A stretch of DNA of 32,158 nucleotides from a virus (lineage: Duplodnaviria > Heunggongvirae > Uroviricota > Caudoviricetes), in IMG/VR virus record IMGVR_UViG_2529292726_000025, positions 1 to 32,158 of that record; one strand, given 5' to 3'. Both the position numbers and the translations under genes were made by a program. Under the pieces are notes generated by a model, which saw nothing but the letters and a program-made list of their open reading frames with translations, did not search any database and had not been told where the DNA came from. This document shows positions 1,532-22,288 of the stretch, in pieces; the stretch's first letter is position 1, and every line of letters begins with the position of its first letter.

Positions 1532-1753
1532 TTAATTTGAATACAATGCAATTCTCGAGGACTGAAGTTTCTCGCAATTAAAATTTATCAGTTTTACTTT
1601 CTGCTCTCTGGAAACGCCTGCTTCTTTTTTACCTGAGAGCATTTTTTCGCATTCTGATTTCGTTAGTTTAGATTTTGAATATCTTGTCCAGTTAGTAGGA
1701 GTGCCACCTTCCTTTTCAATAGTGGCGGTAATTTTATACATGAACACCTCCAT
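1532..1753 (-). CDS. Small prophage protein (YdaC-like), hypothetical
   Basis: ORF between xis and ralR in Rac-like synteny. Start ambiguous (1813, 1753 or 1741); overlaps the ralR 3' end. Confidence 0.4.
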   Translation of the reverse strand: MEVFMYKITATIEKEGGTPTNWTRYSKSKLTKSECEKMLSGKKEAGVSREQKVKLINFNCEKLQSSRIALYSN

Positions 1754-12119: not shown

Positions 12120-12410
12120 CCTGGCCGGAGGCATTCACAACGACAGGAATTGCAATGGCGGCAGCACTTGTTGTGTATTCGATTTGCCGCTGGGGATAAA
12201 AACGGTTTGCAGTGAAAGGGGAGTTAAGTAGAATTGCTGCGGGTGCTTGAGGCTATCTGCCTCAGGCATGAACACCAAAAGGCAGATAGAGAAAAGCCCC
12301 AGTTAACATTACGCGTCCTGCAAGACGCTTAACATTAATCTGAGGCCCAATCTATGTCTCACAAATGTAGGTTAGCCTCTTACGTGCCGAAAGGCAAGGA
12401 GAAGCAGGCT

Positions 12411-12566
12411 ATGAAGCAGCAAAAGGCGATGTTAATCGCCCTTATCGTCATCTGTTTAACCGTCATAGTGACGGCACTGGTAACGAGGAAAGACCTCTGC
12501 GAGGTACGAATCCGAACCGGCCAGACGGAGGTCGCTGTCTTCACAGCTTACGAACCTGAGGAGTAA
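12411..12566 (+). CDS. hok: Hok/Gef-family type I toxin (membrane peptide), 51 aa
   Basis: MKQQKAMLIALIVICLTVIVTALVTRKDLCEVRIRTGQTEVAVFTAYEPEE is a canonical Hok-family sequence with a single transmembrane helix. An in-frame upstream extension to 12354 exists. Confidence 0.8.
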   Translation: MKQQKAMLIALIVICLTVIVTALVTRKDLCEVRIRTGQTEVAVFTAYEPEE

Positions 12567-12604: not shown

Positions 12605-13006
12605 GTGGCAGGCATCCTCAACGCACCCGCACGTAACCCGCTTCGGCGGGTTTTGTTTTTTCCTGGCATTCTGGTTTACAATTCGCACGTCAGCCTGAAC
12701 AACTGGCACCTGCTGCGCCAGCAGAGACAACCGATGGCGCACAAAACCAAATTTCACAATTCTGATACCGACCTTGCCATCCGGCATGGGCGGCGTTCAC
12801 ACGCATTTAAAACCGACTGGTACCAACACCCACCATGTACTGAAGAACAGGCCGAATGGCTAATTCATAACTACCGCAGACGCGGATACGAGATTAAGAA
12901 AGCCCTCAGCCTCGATTATCGTCACTGGATAATCTATGTCAGGCTCCCTTATTCCGAACGCCCACCGCGTCCGTCCCGCACATTCCAGCAACGCATCTGG
13001 AGGTAA
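12605..13006 (+). CDS. Hypothetical small prophage protein (Rem-position), start uncertain (GTG 12605 or ATG 12734)
   Basis: ORF between hok and the DUF968-like gene, as rem is in Qin. The ATG at 12734 gives a 90-aa product. Confidence 0.35.
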   Translation: MAGILNAPARNPLRRVLFFPGILVYNSHVSLNNWHLLRQQRQPMAHKTKFHNSDTDLAIRHGRRSHAFKTDWYQHPPCTEEQAEWLIHNYRRRGYEIKKALSLDYRHWIIYVRLPYSERPPRPSRTFQQRIWR

Positions 13007-13007
13007 C

Positions 13008-14061
13008 GTGCGGGTATTACTTCGACCTGTTCCGGTACCGGAACTTGGGCTGGTGGTGCTAAAACCGGGCCGTGAATCCATGCAGGTATTTCATAACCCT
13101 CGAGTGCTGGTGGAGCCTGAACCGAAAAGCATGCGTAATCTGCCGTCCGGGGTCGTTCCTGCCGTTCGCCAGCCGCTGGTGGAAGACAAAACATTGCTGC
13201 CGTTTTTCAGTAACGCACGGGTAATTCGTGCTGCTGGTGGTGCTGGTGCATTGTCTGACTGGCTGTTGCGCCATATTAAATCCTGCCAGTGGCCTCATGG
13301 TGATTATCATCACAGTGAAACCGTCATACATCGTTACGGTACCGGTGCGATGGTATTGTGCTGGCACTGCGACAACCAGTTGCGTGACCAGACATCCGAA
13401 TCACTCGGGCGGCTTGCTCAACAAAATCTGACAGCCTGGATGATTGACGTCATACGTCACGCAATAAGTGGTGCACTGGAACGGGAATTATCGCTGGCTG
13501 AATTATCCTGGTGGGCGCTCTGCAATCAGGTAGCGGACGCACTACCGGAGGCAGTATTACGTCGTTCTCTGGGGGTACGCGCGGAAAAAATCCACTCAGT
13601 ATACCGCGAGAGTAACATCATGCCGGGAGAACAGACAGCCACCAGCATACTGAAGCAGCGCACAAAAAATTTTGCGCCGTTGCCTCGCGCCCACCAGCAA
13701 CAGAACCCACCACAGGAAAAGACGGTGGTCAGCATTACCGTTGATCCGGAGTCACCGGAATCATTCATGAAGCGGCCTAAACGTCGCCGCTGGGTTAACG
13801 AGAAATACACGCGCTGGGTAAAGAAAGACACAGCCGTGTACGTGTTGTGGTAAGCCAGCAGACGATCCCCATCACCTGATTGGTCACGGTCAGGGAGGGA
13901 TGGGAACAAAGGCCCACGATATTTTCACGCTACCGCTGTGTCGGGAGCATCACAACGAGCTTCATGCGGATCCGCTGGCGTTCGAAGAAAAGCATGGTTC
14001 CCAGATTGATTTAATTTTTCGTTTTCTTGATCACGCCTTTGCAACTGGCGTGCTTGGGTAA
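13008..14061 (+). pseudogene. DUF968 / YdfU-like prophage protein with C-terminal HNH-like zinc motif, split by a frameshift near 13825-13853
   Basis: GTG 13008 follows a GGAGG Shine-Dalgarno. The frame ends at 13853 (..KYTRWVKKDTAVYVLW*). The conserved C-terminus (CGKPADDPHHLIGHGQGGMGTKAHDIFTLPLCREHHNELH...) continues in the +1 frame to 14061. Confidence 0.5.
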
Positions 14062-14073
14062 AAGAGGTGACTG

Positions 14074-14433
14074 ATGCTCATAGATTTGGTTTTCCCTTAC
14101 CCGCCGACGGTGAACACTTACTGGCGACGCCGTGGCAGCACATATTTTATCTCGGAGGAGGGAAAGCGTTATCGCCGGGCTGTGGCGCTTATTGTTCGCC
14201 AGCAGCGGCTGAAATTAAACCTGTCCGGAAGGCTGGCGATAAAGATTATTGCAGAGCCACCGGATAAGCGCCGCCGCGACCTGGACAATATCCTGAAGGC
14301 ACCACTGGATGCGCTGACGCATGCCGGACTACTTATAGACGACGAGCAGTTTGATGAAATCAATATTGTGCGCGGTCAGCTCGTTCCTGGTGGGCGGCTG
14401 GGGATAAAAATCACAGAACTGGAGTGCGCATGA
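14074..14433 (+). CDS. rusA: RusA Holliday-junction resolvase, 119 aa
   Basis: RusA-family signature ...PPDKRRRDLDNILKAPLDALTHAGLLIDDEQ... Typical position upstream of Q. Confidence 0.85.
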   Translation: MLIDLVFPYPPTVNTYWRRRGSTYFISEEGKRYRRAVALIVRQQRLKLNLSGRLAIKIIAEPPDKRRRDLDNILKAPLDALTHAGLLIDDEQFDEINIVRGQLVPGGRLGIKITELECA

Positions 14434-15119
14434 ATAACCAGTATTTACAGTTTGTGCGTGAGCAGCTCATTATCGCCACCGCTGATTTGAGTGGGGCAAC
14501 AAAAGGTCAGCTTGAAGCCTGGCAAGAGAATGCCATGTTCGATACAGGGCGTTACAGGCGTAAAAAAATCCGGTACCGCGATGAAGTGACTGGAAAAATG
14601 ATAACGCGGGATAATCCACCAATCCCGGGAAAGCAATCGCTGGCGAAAGGTTCATCAATTGCCCTGGTCAGTCCGGTTGAGTTTTCGACATCATCATGGC
14701 GACGCGCCGTTCTGTCTCTTGAAGAGCATCAGAAGGCGTGGGTGCTGTGGGTATACAGTGAAAATCCGAGTTGGGATTATCAGGTGGTCATTGCGAAATG
14801 GGCGTGGGATAAGTTTCAGGTGCATTTTGGCACCAGAAAAATTACAGGGAAAACGCTTGAGCGTCTGAAGAAATTAATCTGGCTGGCGGCGCAGGATGTC
14901 AGGGGGAGGATTACTGGGCGTGACGTCTACCAGCGACAGGAACTTGCCAGACTGTGTGGAGTTAAGCCTGACAACTGGAGCCATAATTATGCGAACTACT
15001 GGCGTGAGATGTGCGACATTTTTAAGAAACTCGATACAGAATCCTTGATTTGCACCGTGAAAATGAGATCGCAACAAAAAGCGACCTTTTCACGACGAGA
15101 TATTGCAAAAGTCAATTAA
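14424..15119 (+). CDS. Late-gene antiterminator Q-like protein (QuuQ / phage 82 type), 231 aa
   Basis: Position directly after rusA and directly before a promoter/terminator pair, matching the hok / rem / ydfU / quuQ order in Qin. Assignment is by synteny and size, not a verified motif. Confidence 0.45.
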   Translation: MRMNNQYLQFVREQLIIATADLSGATKGQLEAWQENAMFDTGRYRRKKIRYRDEVTGKMITRDNPPIPGKQSLAKGSSIALVSPVEFSTSSWRRAVLSLEEHQKAWVLWVYSENPSWDYQVVIAKWAWDKFQVHFGTRKITGKTLERLKKLIWLAAQDVRGRITGRDVYQRQELARLCGVKPDNWSHNYANYWREMCDIFKKLDTESLICTVKMRSQQKATFSRRDIAKVN

Positions 15120-15165
15120 ATCGCATACATTTTATGTAAATGTGATATTTTGCCGTATAGTGTGT

Positions 15166-15190
15166 AAACCCACTTAAATGCGGGTTTTTT
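15166..15190 (+). terminator. Intrinsic terminator-like hairpin plus U-run downstream of Q (tR'-like)
   Basis: aaaccc..gcgggttttttg: a 6-8 bp stem followed by T6. Confidence 0.4.
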
Positions 15191-15220
15191 GCTTAACTCT
15201 GTGGACCTTTTTATCTGTAG

Positions 15221-15246
15221 TTGTAAGATATGGATATTCTTACAAT
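15221..15246 (+). promoter_or_regulatory. Palindromic promoter/operator candidate upstream of the kinase
   Basis: ttgtaaga-N9-tcttacaa, an 8-bp inverted repeat. Its TTGTAA and TACAAT hexamers resemble -35 and -10 elements. Lies 18 bp upstream of the kinase ATG. Confidence 0.35.
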
Positions 15247-15263
15247 TTAGGTCGGTGAGCTTA

Positions 15264-16018
15264 ATGGAAGAACAGCACGGTAATTACTTTATAAAACGAA
15301 TTCAGTTGATTGGAAGGGGTGCATTTGGCTTTGTTGAACACGTTAAGGTTTACAACCTCAACAAGGGTGAATGTGGGGATTATGCTAGAAAGGTGAAAAA
15401 CCAGAGCTTTTGGCGCAAATAGAGCAGTTTAGAAGGCGTTTTAAAAGGGAGGTCGTGTATCAATCACATTGCGTACATAGCAATATTGTTCCTATTTATT
15501 TGTGCGATTTGTTTGCCGAGAATCCATGGTTCATTATGGATAAAGCAGAATGTGATCTTGAGCACGAAATAACGAACAACCTTCTTACAACAGATCAAAA
15601 AATTTCAATAGTGAAAATGGTATTAGATGGTGTAGCTCACATCCATGCGAAAGGCTATTTACACAGAGATATAAAACCATTTAATGTCTTGCGATTTAGC
15701 GACGGAACATACAAGGTGTCTGATTTTGGTCTGGTAAAAGATACAAATCCCGAAGGGGATACCACTAAATTGACCGAGATCGGTACCCGTATGGGAAGTA
15801 CAAGATATATGGCTCCCGAGATTTTATATAATGCCGAGTATTCAGTTAAGACTGATGTTTATGCGGTGGGGCGGTTAATTGAGGACTTAAATTTAGATGA
15901 TAAAAAAATAAAGCCTATCATAGCGAAGTGTACCAGGATGGATAAAGATGATAGATATCAGACAATAGATGATGTGGCGTTTGATTTTGTGCATTCTTTT
16001 TTAAGGAGTGAGTCATGA
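15264..16018 (+). CDS. Hanks-type (eukaryotic-like) Ser/Thr protein kinase, interrupted by a -1 frameshift in an A5 run (15396-15400)
   Basis: Glycine loop IGRGAFGFV, beta-3 lysine YARKVK, catalytic loop HRDIKPFN, DFG (VSDFGL) and APE (YMAPEIL). The N-lobe fragment 15264-15422 and catalytic fragment 15410-16018 are in different frames. Confidence 0.8.
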
Positions 16019-16758
16019 TTCAGCTGATAGCGACTTCATCATTCTCGTATCCAAAAGAACCAGGTAGGGTCAACGAAGATTCATTGCTTCCTCCCAAAAT
16101 TGTAGGGGATGGCATCTTATTTGCCGTAGCTGATGGTGTAGGTTCATACACTGGTGCCAGTCAGGCTTCATCAATGGCAATTGCTGAACTTTCAGCATTG
16201 ACAAGCTTATCTTTTGACACAGTTCCGGATGTATTTGATGAAGTTAAGCGAAAGGTTATGTCGTTAGCTGATGTTAATGATGAGTTCGATAAAGCTGCTA
16301 CTACACTTACGTTTTGTTATGTTTGTGATAGCGGAATTATTATTGGTCATATTGGTGATTGTCGTTTGTATTGCATTGGAGAGAAGAAAGCATACCAATT
16401 GACGAAGGACGATACCAGGCATCAGATGCTAATTGATCAGAATATTTTTAAACCCAGAGATTTGAAGGATAAACCGGGCAAAAATATCTTAACGACGGCT
16501 ATAGCCTCAAATGTTGATATGGAATACGACTGTGATTTTATCACATGGAAAGATTTACCTAGTATTAACGGGGTATATCATCTGTGTATCATGTCTGATG
16601 GGGTTCATAACGTTTGGGAAAAACGCCCCAGATTTACATCAAATACGATGAGTAATAGTCAGAAGTTTTCTAATGGCATTTTGCGTCGTATAGAGAGAGC
16701 CGGACCTGATGATGACTTTTCTTTAGTAAGTATAATGGTGCGTGTGACGTCAGATTAG
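16015..16758 (+). CDS. PP2C-family (PPM) Ser/Thr protein phosphatase, 247 aa
   Basis: PPM motifs NEDS, FAVADGVGS, HIGDCRLY, MSDGV and PDDDFS. ATGA start/stop overlap with the kinase indicates translational coupling. Confidence 0.8.
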   Translation: MIQLIATSSFSYPKEPGRVNEDSLLPPKIVGDGILFAVADGVGSYTGASQASSMAIAELSALTSLSFDTVPDVFDEVKRKVMSLADVNDEFDKAATTLTFCYVCDSGIIIGHIGDCRLYCIGEKKAYQLTKDDTRHQMLIDQNIFKPRDLKDKPGKNILTTAIASNVDMEYDCDFITWKDLPSINGVYHLCIMSDGVHNVWEKRPRFTSNTMSNSQKFSNGILRRIERAGPDDDFSLVSIMVRVTSD

Positions 16759-16831
16759 TTGTATAAACTCAGTAGGGAATGCTAATTTCACATACAACAT
16801 AGTTAAAGAAAACTTAATTTTAATGTAAAAA

Positions 16832-16977: not shown

Positions 16978-17175
16978 ATGCTAAAACAGCAGGATATGAC
17001 CGAAACCGCCAGAGTGGTGTTTAATGAATTAAGCGTCACCGAACCGGCGACCGTCGGGGAAATTGCGCAGAATACTTACCTTTCACGCGAACGCTGCCAG
17101 TTAATCCTGACCCAGCTTGTTATGGCGGGTCTGGCAGATTATCAGTTCGGTTGTTACAGACGCCTTCCGCAGTGA
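16978..17175 (+). CDS. Small putative winged-helix DNA-binding protein, 65 aa
   Basis: ATG 16978 with upstream GGGAAAAAG. Sequence MLKQQDMTETARVVFNELSVTEPATVGEIAQNTYLSRERCQLIL. Lies upstream of the methyltransferase gene. Confidence 0.4.
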   Translation: MLKQQDMTETARVVFNELSVTEPATVGEIAQNTYLSRERCQLILTQLVMAGLADYQFGCYRRLPQ

Positions 17176-17325
17176 AGGCTTTTTAATTTGTGGTAATGGG
17201 CGGCTGGTGGGTGTTAGCGGCACCTGCCAGCCATCTGCTCATGCGTTGGGGTCACAAGCAAACCTCAGGCCCATCTGCTTTGCGCAAAAGCAGTATGAGC
17301 CTATCAGAGAAGTGCTTATTGATCT

Positions 17326-17820
17326 ATGACTAATACTGTAAAAATATCCAGTTGTGAGTTAATCAACGCTGATTGCCTGAAATTTATCCAGACCTTACCG
17401 GAAAACTCTGTCGATCTGATAGTCACAGACCCGCCATACTTTAAAGTGAAGCCCGAGGGCTGGGATAACCAGTGGGAGGGCGACGATGATTACCTGAAAT
17501 GGCTGGACCAGTGTCTGGCGCAGTTCTGGCGGGTACTGAAGCCTGCCGGAAGTCTTTACCTGTTCTGTGGTCATCGCCTGGCATCTGACACCGAAATCAT
17601 GATGCGTGAGCGCTTTAATGTGCTGAACCACATTATCTGGGCGAAGCCGTCCGGACGCTGGAACGGGTGCAATAAGGAAAGTCTGCGGGCGTATTTTCCG
17701 GCAACAGAGCGCATTCTGTTTGCAGAACATTATCGGCACCATTCAAACATCTCCCCAAGTCTACTAAAGTCTTTCAAAACCCCTTATAATCCGCGTATTA
17801 AAGCCCCGTTCGTCTTTTGA
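17326..17820 (+). pseudogene. DNA N6-adenine (or N4-cytosine) methyltransferase, DPPY-first type, 3'-truncated at about 17750
   Basis: N-terminal motif IV LIVTDPPYF and conserved core through ERILFAE. The C-terminal AdoMet-binding FxGxG region is absent; the last 20 or so codons are junk-like and span a 23-bp direct repeat. Confidence 0.65.
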
Positions 17821-17844
17821 CGTCTACTAAAGTCCCTCAAAATC
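17759..17844. repeat. Imperfect 23-bp direct repeat pair at the prophage/satellite junction (att or Int arm-site candidate)
   Basis: gtctactaaagtctttcaaaacc (17759-17781) and gtctactaaagtccctcaaaatc (17822-17844), 20 of 23 identical. Followed by gggggtac / gtaccccc inverted repeats before int. Confidence 0.5.
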
Positions 17845-17906
17845 TACGGTCAGATGGGGGTACTTATGGGGGTATTTACTGTTCGGTTTAGTGGAGGTAC
17901 CCCCAA

Positions 17907-19121
17907 GTGAAACTCAATGCCCGTCAAATAGACACAGCCAAGCCAAAAGAGAAGGCTTACAAGCTGGCCGATGGTGGCGGTTTGTATCTCTTGGTAAAAC
18001 CTAATGGAGGTAAATACTGGCGACTTAAATATCGTGTAGCTGGTAAAGAGAAGCTATTGGCACTAGGTGTTTATCCTGAGGTTACTCTAGCCGATGCTCG
18101 GGCAAAACGTGAAGATGCGAAAAGAGGTATCGCTGGTGGTATCGATCCGATGGAAGCGAAACGAGAGGAAAAGATTGCCCGGGAAACGCAGTTAAACAAC
18201 ACCTTCAAAGATATTGCCATTGAGTGGCACAGCAGCAAATTAAAAAAATGGTCTGCTGGTTATGCTTCAGACATCCTCGAAGCCTTCAACAAAGATGTGT
18301 TCCCTTACATTGGCAAAAAAACCATCGCCGAAATCAAACCACTTGAACTTCTGAATGTGCTGCGGCGCATCGAGGGGCGCGGTGCTACAGAAAAAGCCAA
18401 AAAAGTGAGGCAGCGGTGCGGGGAAGTTTTCCGCTATGCAATAGTCACTGGTCGCGCAGAGTATAACCCTGCACCAGACCTTACTAGCGCGATGCAAGGC
18501 CATGAATCTAATCATTACCCTTTCCTTACAGCCAAAGAATTACCTGATTTTTTCAAGGCATTGTCCAGTTACTCAGGAAGCGCATTGGTTGTTATGGCGG
18601 CTCGTCTACTGATTATCACAGGCTTGCGGACTGGCGAACTACGTGGCGCATTATGGGATGAAATTGATTTCAACAAGGCTCTCTGGGAGATACCCGCTTC
18701 ACGTATGAAAATGCGGCGGCCTCATATTGTGCCATTGTCTGAGCAGGCTCTTTCGCTTATTGGGAAGATTAGAGAAATAACAGGCAATTACCCTCTTATG
18801 TTTCCCGGGCGCAATGATCCAAGGAAAACAATGAGCGAGGCCAGCATAAACCAAGTGTTTAAGCGCATTGGCTACGCTGGACGTGTAACTGGTCATGGGT
18901 TCCGGCACACTATGAGTACGATTTTGCATGAGCAGGGCTATAACACCGCGTGGATAGAAACGCAGCTCGCTCACGTTGATAAGAACTCAATTCGTGGCAC
19001 ATACAACCATGCGCAATATCTGGATGGAAGGCGGGAGATGCTTCAATGGTATGCCGACTATATGGATTCTCTCGAGCATAGCGGAAATGTGGTGCATATG
19101 GTGTTTGAAAAACACGCATGA
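17907..19121 (+). CDS. P4-type tyrosine integrase, 404 aa
   Basis: GTG start after a GGAGG Shine-Dalgarno. P4-like N-terminus (KAYKLADGGGLYLLVKPNGGKYWRLKYR) and catalytic R..HxxR..Y (RTGELRGALWDEIDF; HGFRHTMST; RGTYNHAQY). Confidence 0.9.
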   Translation: MKLNARQIDTAKPKEKAYKLADGGGLYLLVKPNGGKYWRLKYRVAGKEKLLALGVYPEVTLADARAKREDAKRGIAGGIDPMEAKREEKIARETQLNNTFKDIAIEWHSSKLKKWSAGYASDILEAFNKDVFPYIGKKTIAEIKPLELLNVLRRIEGRGATEKAKKVRQRCGEVFRYAIVTGRAEYNPAPDLTSAMQGHESNHYPFLTAKELPDFFKALSSYSGSALVVMAARLLIITGLRTGELRGALWDEIDFNKALWEIPASRMKMRRPHIVPLSEQALSLIGKIREITGNYPLMFPGRNDPRKTMSEASINQVFKRIGYAGRVTGHGFRHTMSTILHEQGYNTAWIETQLAHVDKNSIRGTYNHAQYLDGRREMLQWYADYMDSLEHSGNVVHMVFEKHA

Positions 19122-21428: not shown

Positions 21429-22288
21429 CCGTCCAGAAGAAGACATTTTCACTGGCTGGTATGTCGCCAAAATCCAGCAATATGACGGCAAAGTCAGGCA
21501 TTAATACAGCAGATGCAAGCAAAGTTTATCATTTGCTGGTGGTCGGAACGGATGCCTTAACCATATCAGAAATCTCGGGCGATGATATTAGCATTGAGAA
21601 GGTCAGCGGCTGCGCCAGAAAATTTCTGGTCGTAGATGATGTCTTCCGCTCGTGTAGTGACTCCACAAAAACATTCGTCCACGCGCGTGACGTTAACGAA
21701 ATGAGCGCGATGTACTGTGCATCTGGTGCTTCCAATAGCGAGTTTTCGGAGTCCATAAAAAAGAGCTTGCCGTTATGCGGCAACACGGTTTATGGTTATA
21801 AGGCACCTCATAAAACGGGTGCCGGGATTGGCGTCCTGGTAAATCGAATGGCGACATATGACGCGCCGAGCGTCTTTTTTTATGTCGTAGGTCTGACTCA
21901 CCCATTTTTTGGGCGTTGGTGTATAATCCAGCGCCTTTGTCAATCAATGGTGGCTCAGGCAGGGGCTTCTTCGGAAGCGCCGGTATCCATTCGAGCCGGT
22001 TACGCCAACCCTGTCTGGGCTACCACCAGCGAAATTGGCGTTTCCGGTGGTAGCGTTACATGCTATCGAATGGAGGCTGCCACATGCTGGCTACTACCCC
22101 TACCCAAAAACCGCAATTTATCTGGATTATCGCCGCAGTTCGCCGCAGTTCGCCGCGATTGCCCGACAATTACCGCCAAAATTCATCATATTGCTGCCGA
22201 GTCTGAACGCGATGCTCGCCGTTCTCTGGTGCGCGATCACGTCTGCTTTTTTGCTGGTCGTATCCGCATGGAGGTGGCACATGATTAA
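21422..22288 (+). CDS. Hypothetical satellite-element protein, 288 aa, containing a tandem DNA repeat
   Basis: Long ORF in the operon. Contains the 10-bp tandem duplication cgccgcagtt at 22133-22160. Confidence 0.4.

What the first reader, a model, noticed from the sequence alone, without database searches (positions are those of the whole stretch)
15380..15425. -1 frameshift inside the kinase N-lobe at a homopolymeric A5 tract
The kinase reading frame stops at 15420-15422 (...YARKVKNQSFWRK*), while the rest of the catalytic domain continues in the +1 frame from about 15389. Adding one A to the AAAAA run at 15396-15400 would restore a continuous ...YARKVKKPELLAQIEQFRRRFKREVV... kinase. This could be a homopolymer sequencing error, slipped-strand inactivation of a toxic gene, or a phase-variable or programmed-frameshift switch.
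Basis: seen in the sequence. Interest (0 to 1): 0.55.

Follow-up and report, generated by a model that had tools for sequence, protein, structure and literature searches.

The report
Ten-base deletion breaks prophage kinase gene
A protein kinase gene in a decaying E. coli prophage is broken by an inherited 10-base deletion, not by slippage in the neighbouring run of five A's, so it is an ordinary pseudogene and not a frameshift switch.

Summary
The kinase frame (15264-15422) stops at TAG 15420-15422. The rest of the Pkinase domain continues in the -1 frame, which is open from 15389 to 16018.

The cause is not the A5 run. Intact alleles in 48 of 49 complete E. coli genomes, 21 of 21 IMG/VR contigs and 4 of 4 metagenome contigs keep the same A5 run. 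They carry 10 extra bases (TTTAGCCCCC or variants) between window 15394 and 15395. Putting those 10 bases back gives a gene 765/765 nt identical to an intact allele (WP_000392434, 254 aa).

The deletion allele is found with an identical junction in E. coli strain 510016 and in all seven further contigs whose DNA I read (NCBI, ENA and Logan). At least 24 contigs encode its exact product. It is therefore inherited and not an assembly error. A6 or A3 frame-restored products are absent from about 15 billion proteins. There is no slippery heptamer and no downstream RNA structure.

The gene sits in a defective lambdoid prophage between Q and an intact, overlapping PP2C phosphatase gene. The prophage also has a frameshifted DUF968 gene, a truncated methylase gene and an inserted integrase element in place of the late genes relatives carry there.

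Verdict: an ordinary lineage-specific pseudogene. Interest is low.

The parts
14424..15119 (+). Phage antitermination protein Q gene, directly upstream of the kinase cassette
   Evidence: Pfam Phage_antiter_Q E=4.2e-84. PGAP annotation of the near-identical stretch of strain 510016.
15167..15190 (+). Hairpin plus T-run (AAACCCAC-N6-GCGGGTTTTTT), a likely tR'-type terminator between Q and the kinase. It has one stem mismatch here and is perfect in the 55989 allele.
   Evidence: Read from the sequence. The equivalent perfect 8-bp stems in L003 and phiES15 were found. The consensus scan did not flag it. Its function is inferred.
15221..15245 (+). Perfect 8-bp inverted repeat TTGTAAGA-N9-TCTTACAA, 19 nt upstream of the kinase ATG. 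Possibly an operator.
   Evidence: The core TTGTAA...TTACAA is kept in the 55989 allele, with position 7 varying. Function unknown.
15264..15422 (+). 5' kinase fragment: 44 native residues (Gly-loop GRGAFG 17-22, beta3 Lys43 in YARK) followed by 8 out-of-frame residues (KNQSFWRK) and TAG
   Evidence: The exact 52-aa product is on 22-24+ contigs.
15394..15395 (+). Junction of the 10-nt deletion. Intact alleles have TTTAGCCCCC, TTTAGCACCC or CTTAGCACCC between these two bases.
   Evidence: Alignment A1, pattern check, repair test giving 765/765 nt identity, spacer spectrum.
15396..15400 (+). A5 run. This is wild-type sequence (codons GAA AAA CCA = E48 K49 P50 in intact alleles) and is not the lesion.
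   Evidence: Invariant in all four sequences of A1 and in all loci checked.
15389..16018 (+). 3' kinase part in the -1 frame: alphaC Glu66, HRD 137-139, DFG 157-159 and APE 187-189 (intact numbering). Candidate restarts are TTG 15410 and GTG 15455. PGAP and the gene callers chose GTG 15455 (187 aa).
   Evidence: PGAP feature at L001 3306-3869. The 187-aa product is on 20 contigs.
16015..16758 (+). PP2C-family Ser/Thr phosphatase gene. It is intact, overlaps the kinase stop by 4 nt (ATGA) and has its own AAGGAG Shine-Dalgarno sequence at 16003-16008.
   Evidence: Pfam PP2C_2 E=2.1e-14. 0 nt differences from the allele paired with an intact kinase. phrog_5650 E=6.7e-65.
16978..17175 (+). 65-aa conserved phage ORF of unknown function, followed by a terminator-like hairpin at 17162-17179
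   Evidence: phrog_331 E=1.4e-37. Terminator scan. Present in all related loci.
17326..17740 (+). 5' remnant of a DNA methyltransferase gene. Homology to the intact 349-aa gene ends at 17740.
   Evidence: Pfam N6_N4_Mtase, profile positions 1-106 of 221. BLAST end point. PGAP note 'missing C-terminus'.
17907..19121 (+). Tyrosine integrase of a second mobile element. That element takes the place of the rest of the methylase gene and of the tRNA and holin genes that follow it in strain 503025.

Best explanation
The kinase gene of a two-gene kinase/PP2C-phosphatase cassette has been made a pseudogene by a single 10-nt deletion. The cassette is carried between Q and the late genes of a lambdoid prophage. 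The deletion removes TTTAGCCCCC, which covers codons 45-47 and the first base of codon 48, immediately after the catalytic beta3 lysine.

The deletion shifts the frame by the equivalent of -1, so translation ends 8 codons later. What remains is a 52-aa peptide holding the Gly-loop and Lys43. A downstream fragment may also be made from GTG 15455. It would lack the Gly-loop, Lys43 and the alphaC Glu66, so it cannot be an active kinase. That last step is inferred from the established Hanks-kinase motif requirements.

The deletion arose once, on the allele type found in strain 503025, and is inherited in one E. coli lineage whose prophage is decaying in other places too. The A5 run next to the junction is normal coding sequence and took no part. 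The phosphatase gene is untouched and has its own ribosome-binding site.

Shown: the lesion, its ancestry, its distribution and the absence of revertants. Inferred: loss of kinase activity, and the idea that the intact cassette acts as a kinase-effector/phosphatase-antidote (toxin-antitoxin or phage-exclusion type) module.
For: The 10-nt gap relative to two diverged intact alleles, with A5 conserved.

Reinserting TTTAGCCCCC at 15394|15395 gives 765/765 nt identity and an identical 254-aa protein to strain 503025.

48 of 49 complete genomes span 111 nt for the 101-nt query. Only strain 510016 matches 100%.

The window differs from 510016 by 7 SNPs in 7651 nt, and its first 3.6 kb has no match at that place in 510016. 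It therefore comes from a separate genome.

The exact 52-aa product is on 24 contigs read, out of 35 index blocks. The seven contigs returned as DNA all have the identical junction, and those long enough show the same gene order.

A length-tolerant pattern scan found 25 of 25 IMG/VR and metagenome matches with a 10-nt spacer.

The intact alleles differ by 20 synonymous and 3 nonsynonymous changes, dN/dS 0.035. The single-ORF form is therefore the one under selection.

L45, removed by the deletion, is invariant in homologues from phages Flotzy and phiES15.

Neighbouring lesions: DUF968 frameshifted, methylase truncated at 17740, integrase element in place of the tRNA and holin genes that follow the methylase in strain 503025.
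Against: No expression or activity data exist, so residual function of the fragments cannot be excluded. Low-level spontaneous -1 slippage somewhere in the 31-nt overlap (15389-15419) cannot be ruled out by sequence alone. Whether the loss was neutral decay or selected is not resolved.
Confidence: 0.9

Rival explanations
1. Sequencing or assembly error: a miscounted homopolymer, so the true genome carries an intact gene.
For: The break lies next to T, C and A homopolymer runs.
Against: The difference from intact alleles is 10 nt, not 1. The identical junction is in every assembly read from different sources and platforms: strain 510016 and seven NCBI, ENA and Logan contigs. It is also in a complete genome that differs from the window by SNPs.
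Confidence: 0.01
2. Programmed -1 ribosomal frameshift, or a phase-variable (contingency) switch at the A5 run, that yields full-length kinase in a fraction of cells or translations.
For: One extra A, or a -1 slip within 15389-15419, would give a continuous 251-aa ORF. AAA AAC is moderately slip-prone (my own knowledge).
Against: Intact relatives have the same A5 in frame, so the tract did not evolve as a switch. The 0-frame G_AAA_AAC does not fit X_XXY_YYZ. There is no downstream structure (MFE -11.5 kcal/mol, z -0.24). The A6 and A3 products are absent from about 15 billion proteins. The split form is confined to a rare allele. The restored product would lack invariant L45 beside the catalytic lysine. 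A run of 5 is shorter than typical contingency tracts (my own knowledge).
Confidence: 0.02
3. Selected (adaptive) loss of a toxic or costly kinase with the antidote phosphatase retained. This would be toxin-first decay of a phosphorylation-based toxin-antitoxin or abortive-infection module, as opposed to neutral prophage decay.
For: Independent kinase-inactivating alleles exist elsewhere: C5 to C4 in four SRA assemblies on an otherwise intact prophage background; an IS1 insertion at kinase nt 230 in 12 contigs; IS5-like junction products. The phosphatase is full length (247 aa) wherever the contig reaches its end. In the characterised KKP module the kinases are the toxin and the PP2C is the antitoxin (PMC11341870).
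Against: Those alleles were found by searching with the N-terminal fragment, so ascertainment is biased. Truncated phosphatase products also exist in the collection and were not analysed. Inactivated alleles amount to tens of contigs, against 669 and at least 1000 contigs for the two intact alleles. The intact kinase shows strong purifying selection (dN/dS 0.035). Neighbouring genes in this prophage are broken as well, which fits general decay.
Confidence: 0.2
4. The two ORFs form a functional split kinase, with the N-lobe peptide and the C-terminal fragment assembling in trans.
For: Both pieces are open reading frames. An SD-like AAGGGAGG precedes GTG 15455.
Against: The 52-aa piece ends inside beta3 with 8 foreign residues. 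The 187-aa piece starts after the alphaC Glu. The SD-to-GTG spacing is only 2 nt. The arrangement is not conserved: it is 1 of 49 complete genomes and 0 of 25 scan matches.
Confidence: 0.02

Closest known systems
Intact allele of the same gene: E. coli prophage serine/threonine-protein kinase WP_000392434 / WP_000392435 (254 aa, phrog_2361), paired with PP2C phosphatase WP_000615424 / WP_000615423
   Same: Identical nucleotide sequence apart from the 10-nt deletion. Same position between Q and the methylase gene, same 4-nt overlap with the phosphatase gene.
   Different: The window allele is frameshifted and split into 52-aa and roughly 187-202-aa ORFs.
Kinase + PP2C cassettes of Escherichia phage Flotzy and Cronobacter phage phiES15
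   Same: Kinase of about 255 aa followed by an overlapping gene of about 247 aa in the late region of lambdoid phages (annotated PP2C in phiES15, 'hypothetical protein' in Flotzy). Kinase identity is 45% and 40%. YARKxL, HRD and DFG are conserved.
   Different: Those copies are intact. In Flotzy the cassette follows the lysis genes instead of Q.
KKP (PfpC-PfkA-PfkB) kinase-kinase-phosphatase module of Pseudomonas Pf prophages (PMC11341870)
   Same: A prophage-borne Hanks-type kinase with a PP2C phosphatase. In KKP the kinases are the toxin and defence effector and the phosphatase is the antitoxin. This is a plausible model for how the intact cassette works.
   Different: [quoted passage not shown] Here there are two genes in the order kinase-PP2C, and only a bare Pkinase domain is found. 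No experiment exists for the E. coli cassette.
Stk of Stx phage 933W and related phages (prophage kinase that excludes phage HK97; Friedman et al. 2011, cited from my own knowledge)
   Same: A kinase-domain protein encoded by a lambdoid prophage.
   Different: Only 25.7% identity over 68% of the query. stk lies in the immunity region (record annotation). No adjacent PP2C gene is known to me.
PADLOC defence kinase models: mad6, PD-T4-6, Stk2
   Same: The intact kinase matches them at E=1e-39, 1e-34 and 5e-28.
   Different: The matches cover only the shared kinase domain of longer profiles (for example positions 51-243 of 659 and 11-201 of 327). They are not specific evidence of membership.

Membership tests
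Hanks-type Ser/Thr protein kinase (Pfam PF00069) | Gly-rich loop GxGxxG and beta3 AxK lysine | tested here: met
   GRGAFG at residues 17-22 and YARK with K43, both in the 5' fragment 15264-15422.
Hanks-type Ser/Thr protein kinase (Pfam PF00069) | alphaC Glu, HRD catalytic loop, DFG, APE | tested here: met
   E66, HRD 137-139, DFG 157-159 and APE 187-189, all in the -1 frame ORF. Pkinase E=1.8e-29.
Hanks-type Ser/Thr protein kinase (Pfam PF00069) | All motifs on one polypeptide (a functional gene) | tested here: not met
   The motifs are split over two frames by the 10-nt deletion.
Programmed -1 ribosomal frameshift site | Slippery heptamer X_XXY_YYZ in the 0 frame | tested here: not met
   The 0-frame reading is GTG AAA AAC, i.e. 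G_AAA_AAC. No canonical heptamer lies in the 15389-15419 overlap.
Programmed -1 ribosomal frameshift site | Downstream stimulatory RNA structure | tested here: not met
   15401-15470 folds at -11.5 kcal/mol with z=-0.24 against shuffles.
Programmed -1 ribosomal frameshift site | Two-frame arrangement conserved among homologues | tested here: not met
   48 of 49 complete genomes and 25 of 25 scan matches are single-frame. The phage homologues are single-frame.
Phase-variable homopolymer (contingency) locus | Tract length polymorphism between or within strains | tested here: not met
   A5 in every sequence examined. A6 and A3 products are absent from the collection.
Phase-variable homopolymer (contingency) locus | A long tract, typically 7 or more | tested here: not met
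   The run is 5 A. The threshold is from my own knowledge.
KKP kinase-kinase-phosphatase module | Gene order PP2C, kinase, kinase, with CSD and FHA accessory domains (the CSD on the PfkA-like kinase) | tested here: not met
   The order is kinase then PP2C, there are two genes, and Pfam finds only Pkinase and PP2C_2.
KKP kinase-kinase-phosphatase module | Kinase toxicity neutralised by the phosphatase; anti-phage defence | not testable with these tools
   Needs expression and phage-challenge experiments.
933W-type Stk exclusion kinase | Close sequence relationship and location in the immunity region | tested here: not met
   25.7% identity over 68% of the query. Here the gene lies downstream of Q.
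PD-T4-6 / Stk2 / mad6 defence kinases (PADLOC) | Match to the family profile beyond the generic kinase domain | tested here: inconclusive
   The E-values are strong, but only the kinase-domain parts of longer profiles are matched.

The most novel reading that the evidence does not exclude
The intact kinase/PP2C pair is an uncharacterised two-gene, phosphorylation-based toxin-antitoxin or abortive-infection module of lambdoid phages, a minimal relative of KKP. Its kinase is lost repeatedly and independently while the antidote phosphatase is kept: by the 10-nt deletion here, by C5 to C4 contraction one base away, and by IS1 and IS5 insertions elsewhere. The T4-AG-C5-G-A5 stretch just after the catalytic lysine would then be a mutational soft spot.
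Probability: 0.15. Interest if true: 0.4.

Novelty: already known. Interest (0 to 1): 0.1.

Why it matters
It matters little for biology. It corrects an attractive but wrong reading (a homopolymer switch) to a plain inherited deletion in a decaying prophage.

The practical lesson is that a frame break beside a short homopolymer should be compared with intact alleles before slippage is invoked. Here the frame arithmetic (-10 is equivalent to -1) imitates the loss of a single base.

There is one secondary point. The intact kinase/PP2C cassette is common in E. coli prophages (two intact alleles on 669 and at least 1000 contigs) and is under strong purifying selection. I found no functional study of it in the searchable literature. 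The intact allele, not this broken copy, would be the thing to test for toxin-antitoxin or phage-exclusion activity.

Tried and rejected
Homopolymer miscount: rejected by alignment and by independent assemblies.

Microhomology-mediated deletion: the only ambiguity at the junction is within the T run, and no flanking direct repeat brackets the 10 nt (read). The mechanism of the deletion itself stays unknown.

Programmed frameshift: no heptamer and no structure.

Phase variation: A6 and A3 products are absent. That look-up covers only the products that start at ATG 15264. Calls made from the upstream TTG start were not looked up.

Rfam: no RNA family at or near the site. The sigma-70 promoter scan found nothing upstream of the kinase and no more sites than in shuffles.

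Literature: four searches found no paper on this E. coli cassette or its WP accessions, and a fifth on the PADLOC family PD-T4-6 added nothing. Only the analogous KKP system was found. The DefensePredictor paper has no kinase/PP2C system.

P0002 became accessible after a homologue search. P0003 (44 aa, ending ...YARKV, 11 contigs) could not be examined. A T4 to T3 contraction giving GTT TAG would explain it, but this is unverified.

The clustering of independent lesions near the N-terminus was considered as evidence of a hotspot. I set it aside as largely an ascertainment effect of querying with the N-terminal fragment.

Full report
**1. The observation**

- An ORF starting at ATG 15264 encodes MEEQHGNYFIKRIQLIGRGAFGFVEHVKVYNLNKGECGDYARKVKNQSFWRK and ends at TAG 15420-15422.
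- The -1 (+2) frame is open from 15389, after a TAG at 15386-15388. It reads KGEKPELLAQIEQFRRRFKREVVYQSH... and runs to 16018.
- Pfam places the downstream ORF on Pkinase profile positions 41-190 (E=1.8e-29). An intact homologue covers positions 3-190 in one frame.
- The AAAAA run is at 15396-15400.

The split of one kinase domain over two frames is real.

**2. What the lesion is**

A megablast of 15150-16800 against 5,426 complete E. coli genomes found the locus in 50 of them. The best hit (strain 510016) spans 1651 nt like the window. The others listed span 1660-1662 nt.

Alignment with two diverged intact alleles (strains 503025 and 55989) shows a clean 10-nt gap in the window and in 510016. 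The gap lies between GGT (ending at 15394) and GAAAAACC (starting at 15395). Intact alleles carry TTTAGCCCCC or CTTAGCACCC there, and they have the same A5 run.

In intact genes the A5 is ordinary coding sequence (GAA AAA CCA = E48 K49 P50 of ...YARKVLAPEKPELLAQ...). Reinserting TTTAGCCCCC at 15394|15395 makes the window gene 765/765 nt identical to the 503025 allele (WP_000392434, 254 aa). The deletion is therefore the only difference, and it is recent.

Because -10 is equivalent to -1 modulo 3, adding one A would also restore the frame. The product would be 251 aa. It would lack L45, A46 and P47 and carry E48K. L45 is invariant in the four-sequence alignment that includes the phage homologues.

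**3. Real or artefact, and how widespread**

A 101-nt junction query matched 49 genomes. Only 510016 matched at 100%. The other 48 span 111 nt.

The window is not the 510016 record. It differs by 7 SNPs over 7651 nt, and its first 3.6 kb has no match at that place in 510016.

The exact 52-aa product is in the 15-billion-protein collection on 22 contigs, including an NCBI protein from 'E. coli 2875150'. The 187-aa downstream product is on 20 contigs.

A contig look-up read 24 contigs, out of 35 index blocks, from NCBI assemblies, an ENA metagenome and Logan SRA assemblies. The seven returned as DNA carry the identical junction with A5. Where the contig is long enough, the gene order is the same: Q, split kinase, PP2C, 65-aa ORF, truncated methylase, integrase. 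One of them (L007) has an intact DUF968 gene, so the kinase deletion and the DUF968 frameshift are separate events.

I also ran an unbiased, length-tolerant pattern scan (GATTATGCTAGAAAGGT N{0,14} GAAAAACCAGAGCTTTTGG). It found 21 IMG/VR and 4 metagenome matches, all with a 10-nt spacer: 16 TTTAGCCCCC, 8 TTTAGCACCC and 1 CTTAGCACCC.

The two intact 254-aa alleles are on 669 and at least 1000 contigs. They differ from each other by 20 synonymous and 3 nonsynonymous changes, giving dN/dS 0.035 for the kinase and 0.12 for the phosphatase.

The single-ORF form is therefore the conserved, selected form. The split form is a rare allele inherited in one lineage.

**4. Tests of the switch ideas**

- The 0-frame reading GTG AAA AAC gives G_AAA_AAC, which is not an X_XXY_YYZ heptamer.
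- The 70 nt downstream fold no better than shuffles (-11.5 kcal/mol, z=-0.24).
- The A6 (251 aa) and A3 (250 aa) frame-restored products are not in the collection.
- The A-run is 5 in every sequence examined.
- No Rfam family lies at the site.

Programmed frameshifting and phase variation are unsupported.

**5. Context**

The gene follows the phage Q antiterminator gene (14424-15119, E=4.2e-84) and a terminator-like hairpin. It is followed by an intact PP2C phosphatase gene (16015-16758) that overlaps the kinase stop by 4 nt and has its own AAGGAG. This phosphatase gene is nucleotide-identical to the copy paired with an intact kinase.

The surrounding element is a lambdoid prophage remnant.
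- RalA sRNA lies at 1557-1735 and the hok/sok antitoxin RNA at 12241-12416.
- Genes for an integrase, RecE- and RecT-type proteins, RusA and Q are present.
- DUF968 is frameshifted.
- The DNA methylase gene is cut at 17740.
- From 17907 an integrase/TOPRIM-DUF927 element stands where strain 503025 has the rest of the methylase gene, three tRNA genes and holin genes.

The kinase deletion is one of several inactivating lesions in a decaying prophage.

**6. What the intact cassette is**

The kinase is a bare Hanks-type domain with GRGAFG, K43, E66, HRD, DFG and APE. It matches phrog_2361 at E=2.4e-98. Its closest solved relatives are bacterial PknB-type and eukaryotic PAK/CDK kinase domains.

The same arrangement, a kinase of about 255 aa followed by an overlapping gene of about 247 aa, occurs in Escherichia phage Flotzy after the lysis genes. 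It also occurs in Cronobacter phage phiES15 between Q and the lysis genes. Kinase identity is 45% and 40%. It is thus a mobile accessory ('moron') cassette of lambdoid late regions.

PADLOC defence-kinase profiles (mad6, PD-T4-6, Stk2) match, but only over the shared kinase domain. The 933W Stk exclusion kinase is only 25.7% identical.

The nearest characterised system is the Pf-prophage KKP module. There the kinases are the toxin and defence effector and a PP2C is the antitoxin (PMC11341870). Its gene order, gene number and accessory domains differ from this cassette.

By analogy, I infer that the intact cassette is a kinase effector held in check by its phosphatase. This is inference only. 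I found no paper on this cassette.

**7. Consequence of the deletion (inferred)**

The 52-aa peptide carries the Gly-loop and Lys43 but nothing else. Any product from GTG 15455 lacks the Gly-loop, Lys43 and the alphaC Glu66. By the established requirements of Hanks kinases it would be inactive. The SD-like AAGGGAGG ends only 2 nt before that GTG. The phosphatase can still be translated from its own ribosome-binding site.

**8. Seen in passing: other broken alleles**

Searching with the N-terminal fragment and reading cluster members showed other, independent kinase lesions elsewhere in the population.
- A C5 to C4 contraction (GCCCCG) one base from the window's junction, in four SRA assemblies. 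One of them (L014) reaches far enough to show intact DUF968 and methylase genes. It gives the same KNQSFWRK* tail.
- An IS1 insertion at kinase nt 230, in 12 contigs.
- IS5-like and further IS1-like junction products.
- An unverified 44-aa product ending ...YARKV.

These could hint at recurrent loss of a costly kinase. However, the search was biased towards N-terminal fragments. Truncated phosphatase products also exist. Broken alleles are tens of contigs, against 669 and at least 1000 contigs for the two intact alleles. I give selected loss only about 0.2.

**9. Verdict**

The interpretation centred on the A5 tract is wrong in mechanism. This is a 10-nt deletion pseudogene inherited in one E. 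coli lineage within a defective prophage. It is ordinary and of low interest. The intact kinase/PP2C cassette, not this broken copy, is the thing worth testing experimentally.

Noticed in passing
L014-L017 (Logan assemblies ERR11528715, SRR33053977, SRR12779529, SRR9326092), kinase codon 47: An independent 1-nt frameshift allele of the same kinase: C5 to C4 (GCCCCCG becomes GCCCCG), one base from the window's deletion junction. It gives the same out-of-frame tail KNQSFWRK*. One locus (L014) extends far enough to show intact DUF968 and methylase genes.
   Followed up: partly
L018-L023, kinase nt 230; also proteins P0006, P0045, P0046, P0043: Further independent disruptions of the kinase in other E. 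coli. There is an IS1 end (GGTAATGCTGCCAACTTACTGATTTAGTG...) inserted at nt 230 in 12 contigs. Junction peptides suggest an IS5 insertion at the CTAG in codons 41-42 and another IS1 insertion near nt 96. A 44-aa product ending YARKV (P0003, 11 contigs) may reflect T4 to T3 creating a TAG. That last case is unverified.
   Followed up: partly
window 15221-15245: A perfect 8-bp inverted repeat TTGTAAGA-N9-TCTTACAA, 19 nt upstream of the kinase start codon. The core TTGTAA/TTACAA is kept in the 55989 allele. It may be an operator for regulating the cassette.
   Followed up: partly
window 17740-19121 and onward to about 31600: Homology to the intact DNA methylase gene ends at 17740. A second element begins there: tyrosine integrase 17907-19121, antA/antB-family antirepressor, Icd-like protein, TOPRIM/DUF927 primase, DNA ejection and injection protein genes. 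It stands where strain 503025 has three tRNA genes and holin genes. The same 13.8-kb element is 99.8% identical in many unrelated E. coli.
   Followed up: partly
window 21803-21880 and 21943-22030: Rfam matches to isrK (67 bits) and the C4 antisense RNA (79.5 bits), a P1/P7-type ant immunity RNA, inside the second element.
   Followed up: no
window 12936-14061: The DUF968 gene is split (305-aa ORF 12936-13853 plus 53-aa ORF 13900-14061) and is annotated 'frameshifted' in strain 510016. It is intact (373 aa) in one contig (L007) that carries the kinase deletion, so the two lesions arose separately.
   Followed up: partly
window 1557-1735 and 12241-12416: RalA sRNA (antitoxin of RalR; 225 bits) and the sok antitoxin RNA next to hokD. 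Both are type I toxin-antitoxin loci of Rac- and Qin-type cryptic prophages. The window's left 3.6 kb resembles the Rac-type int-recT-recE arm of O55:H7 strains and not strain 510016.
   Followed up: no
window 15167-15190: The terminator-like hairpin between Q and the kinase has a stem mismatch here (AAACCCAC / GCGGGTTT). It is a perfect 8-bp stem in the 55989 allele and in phiES15. This may affect read-through into the cassette.
   Followed up: no
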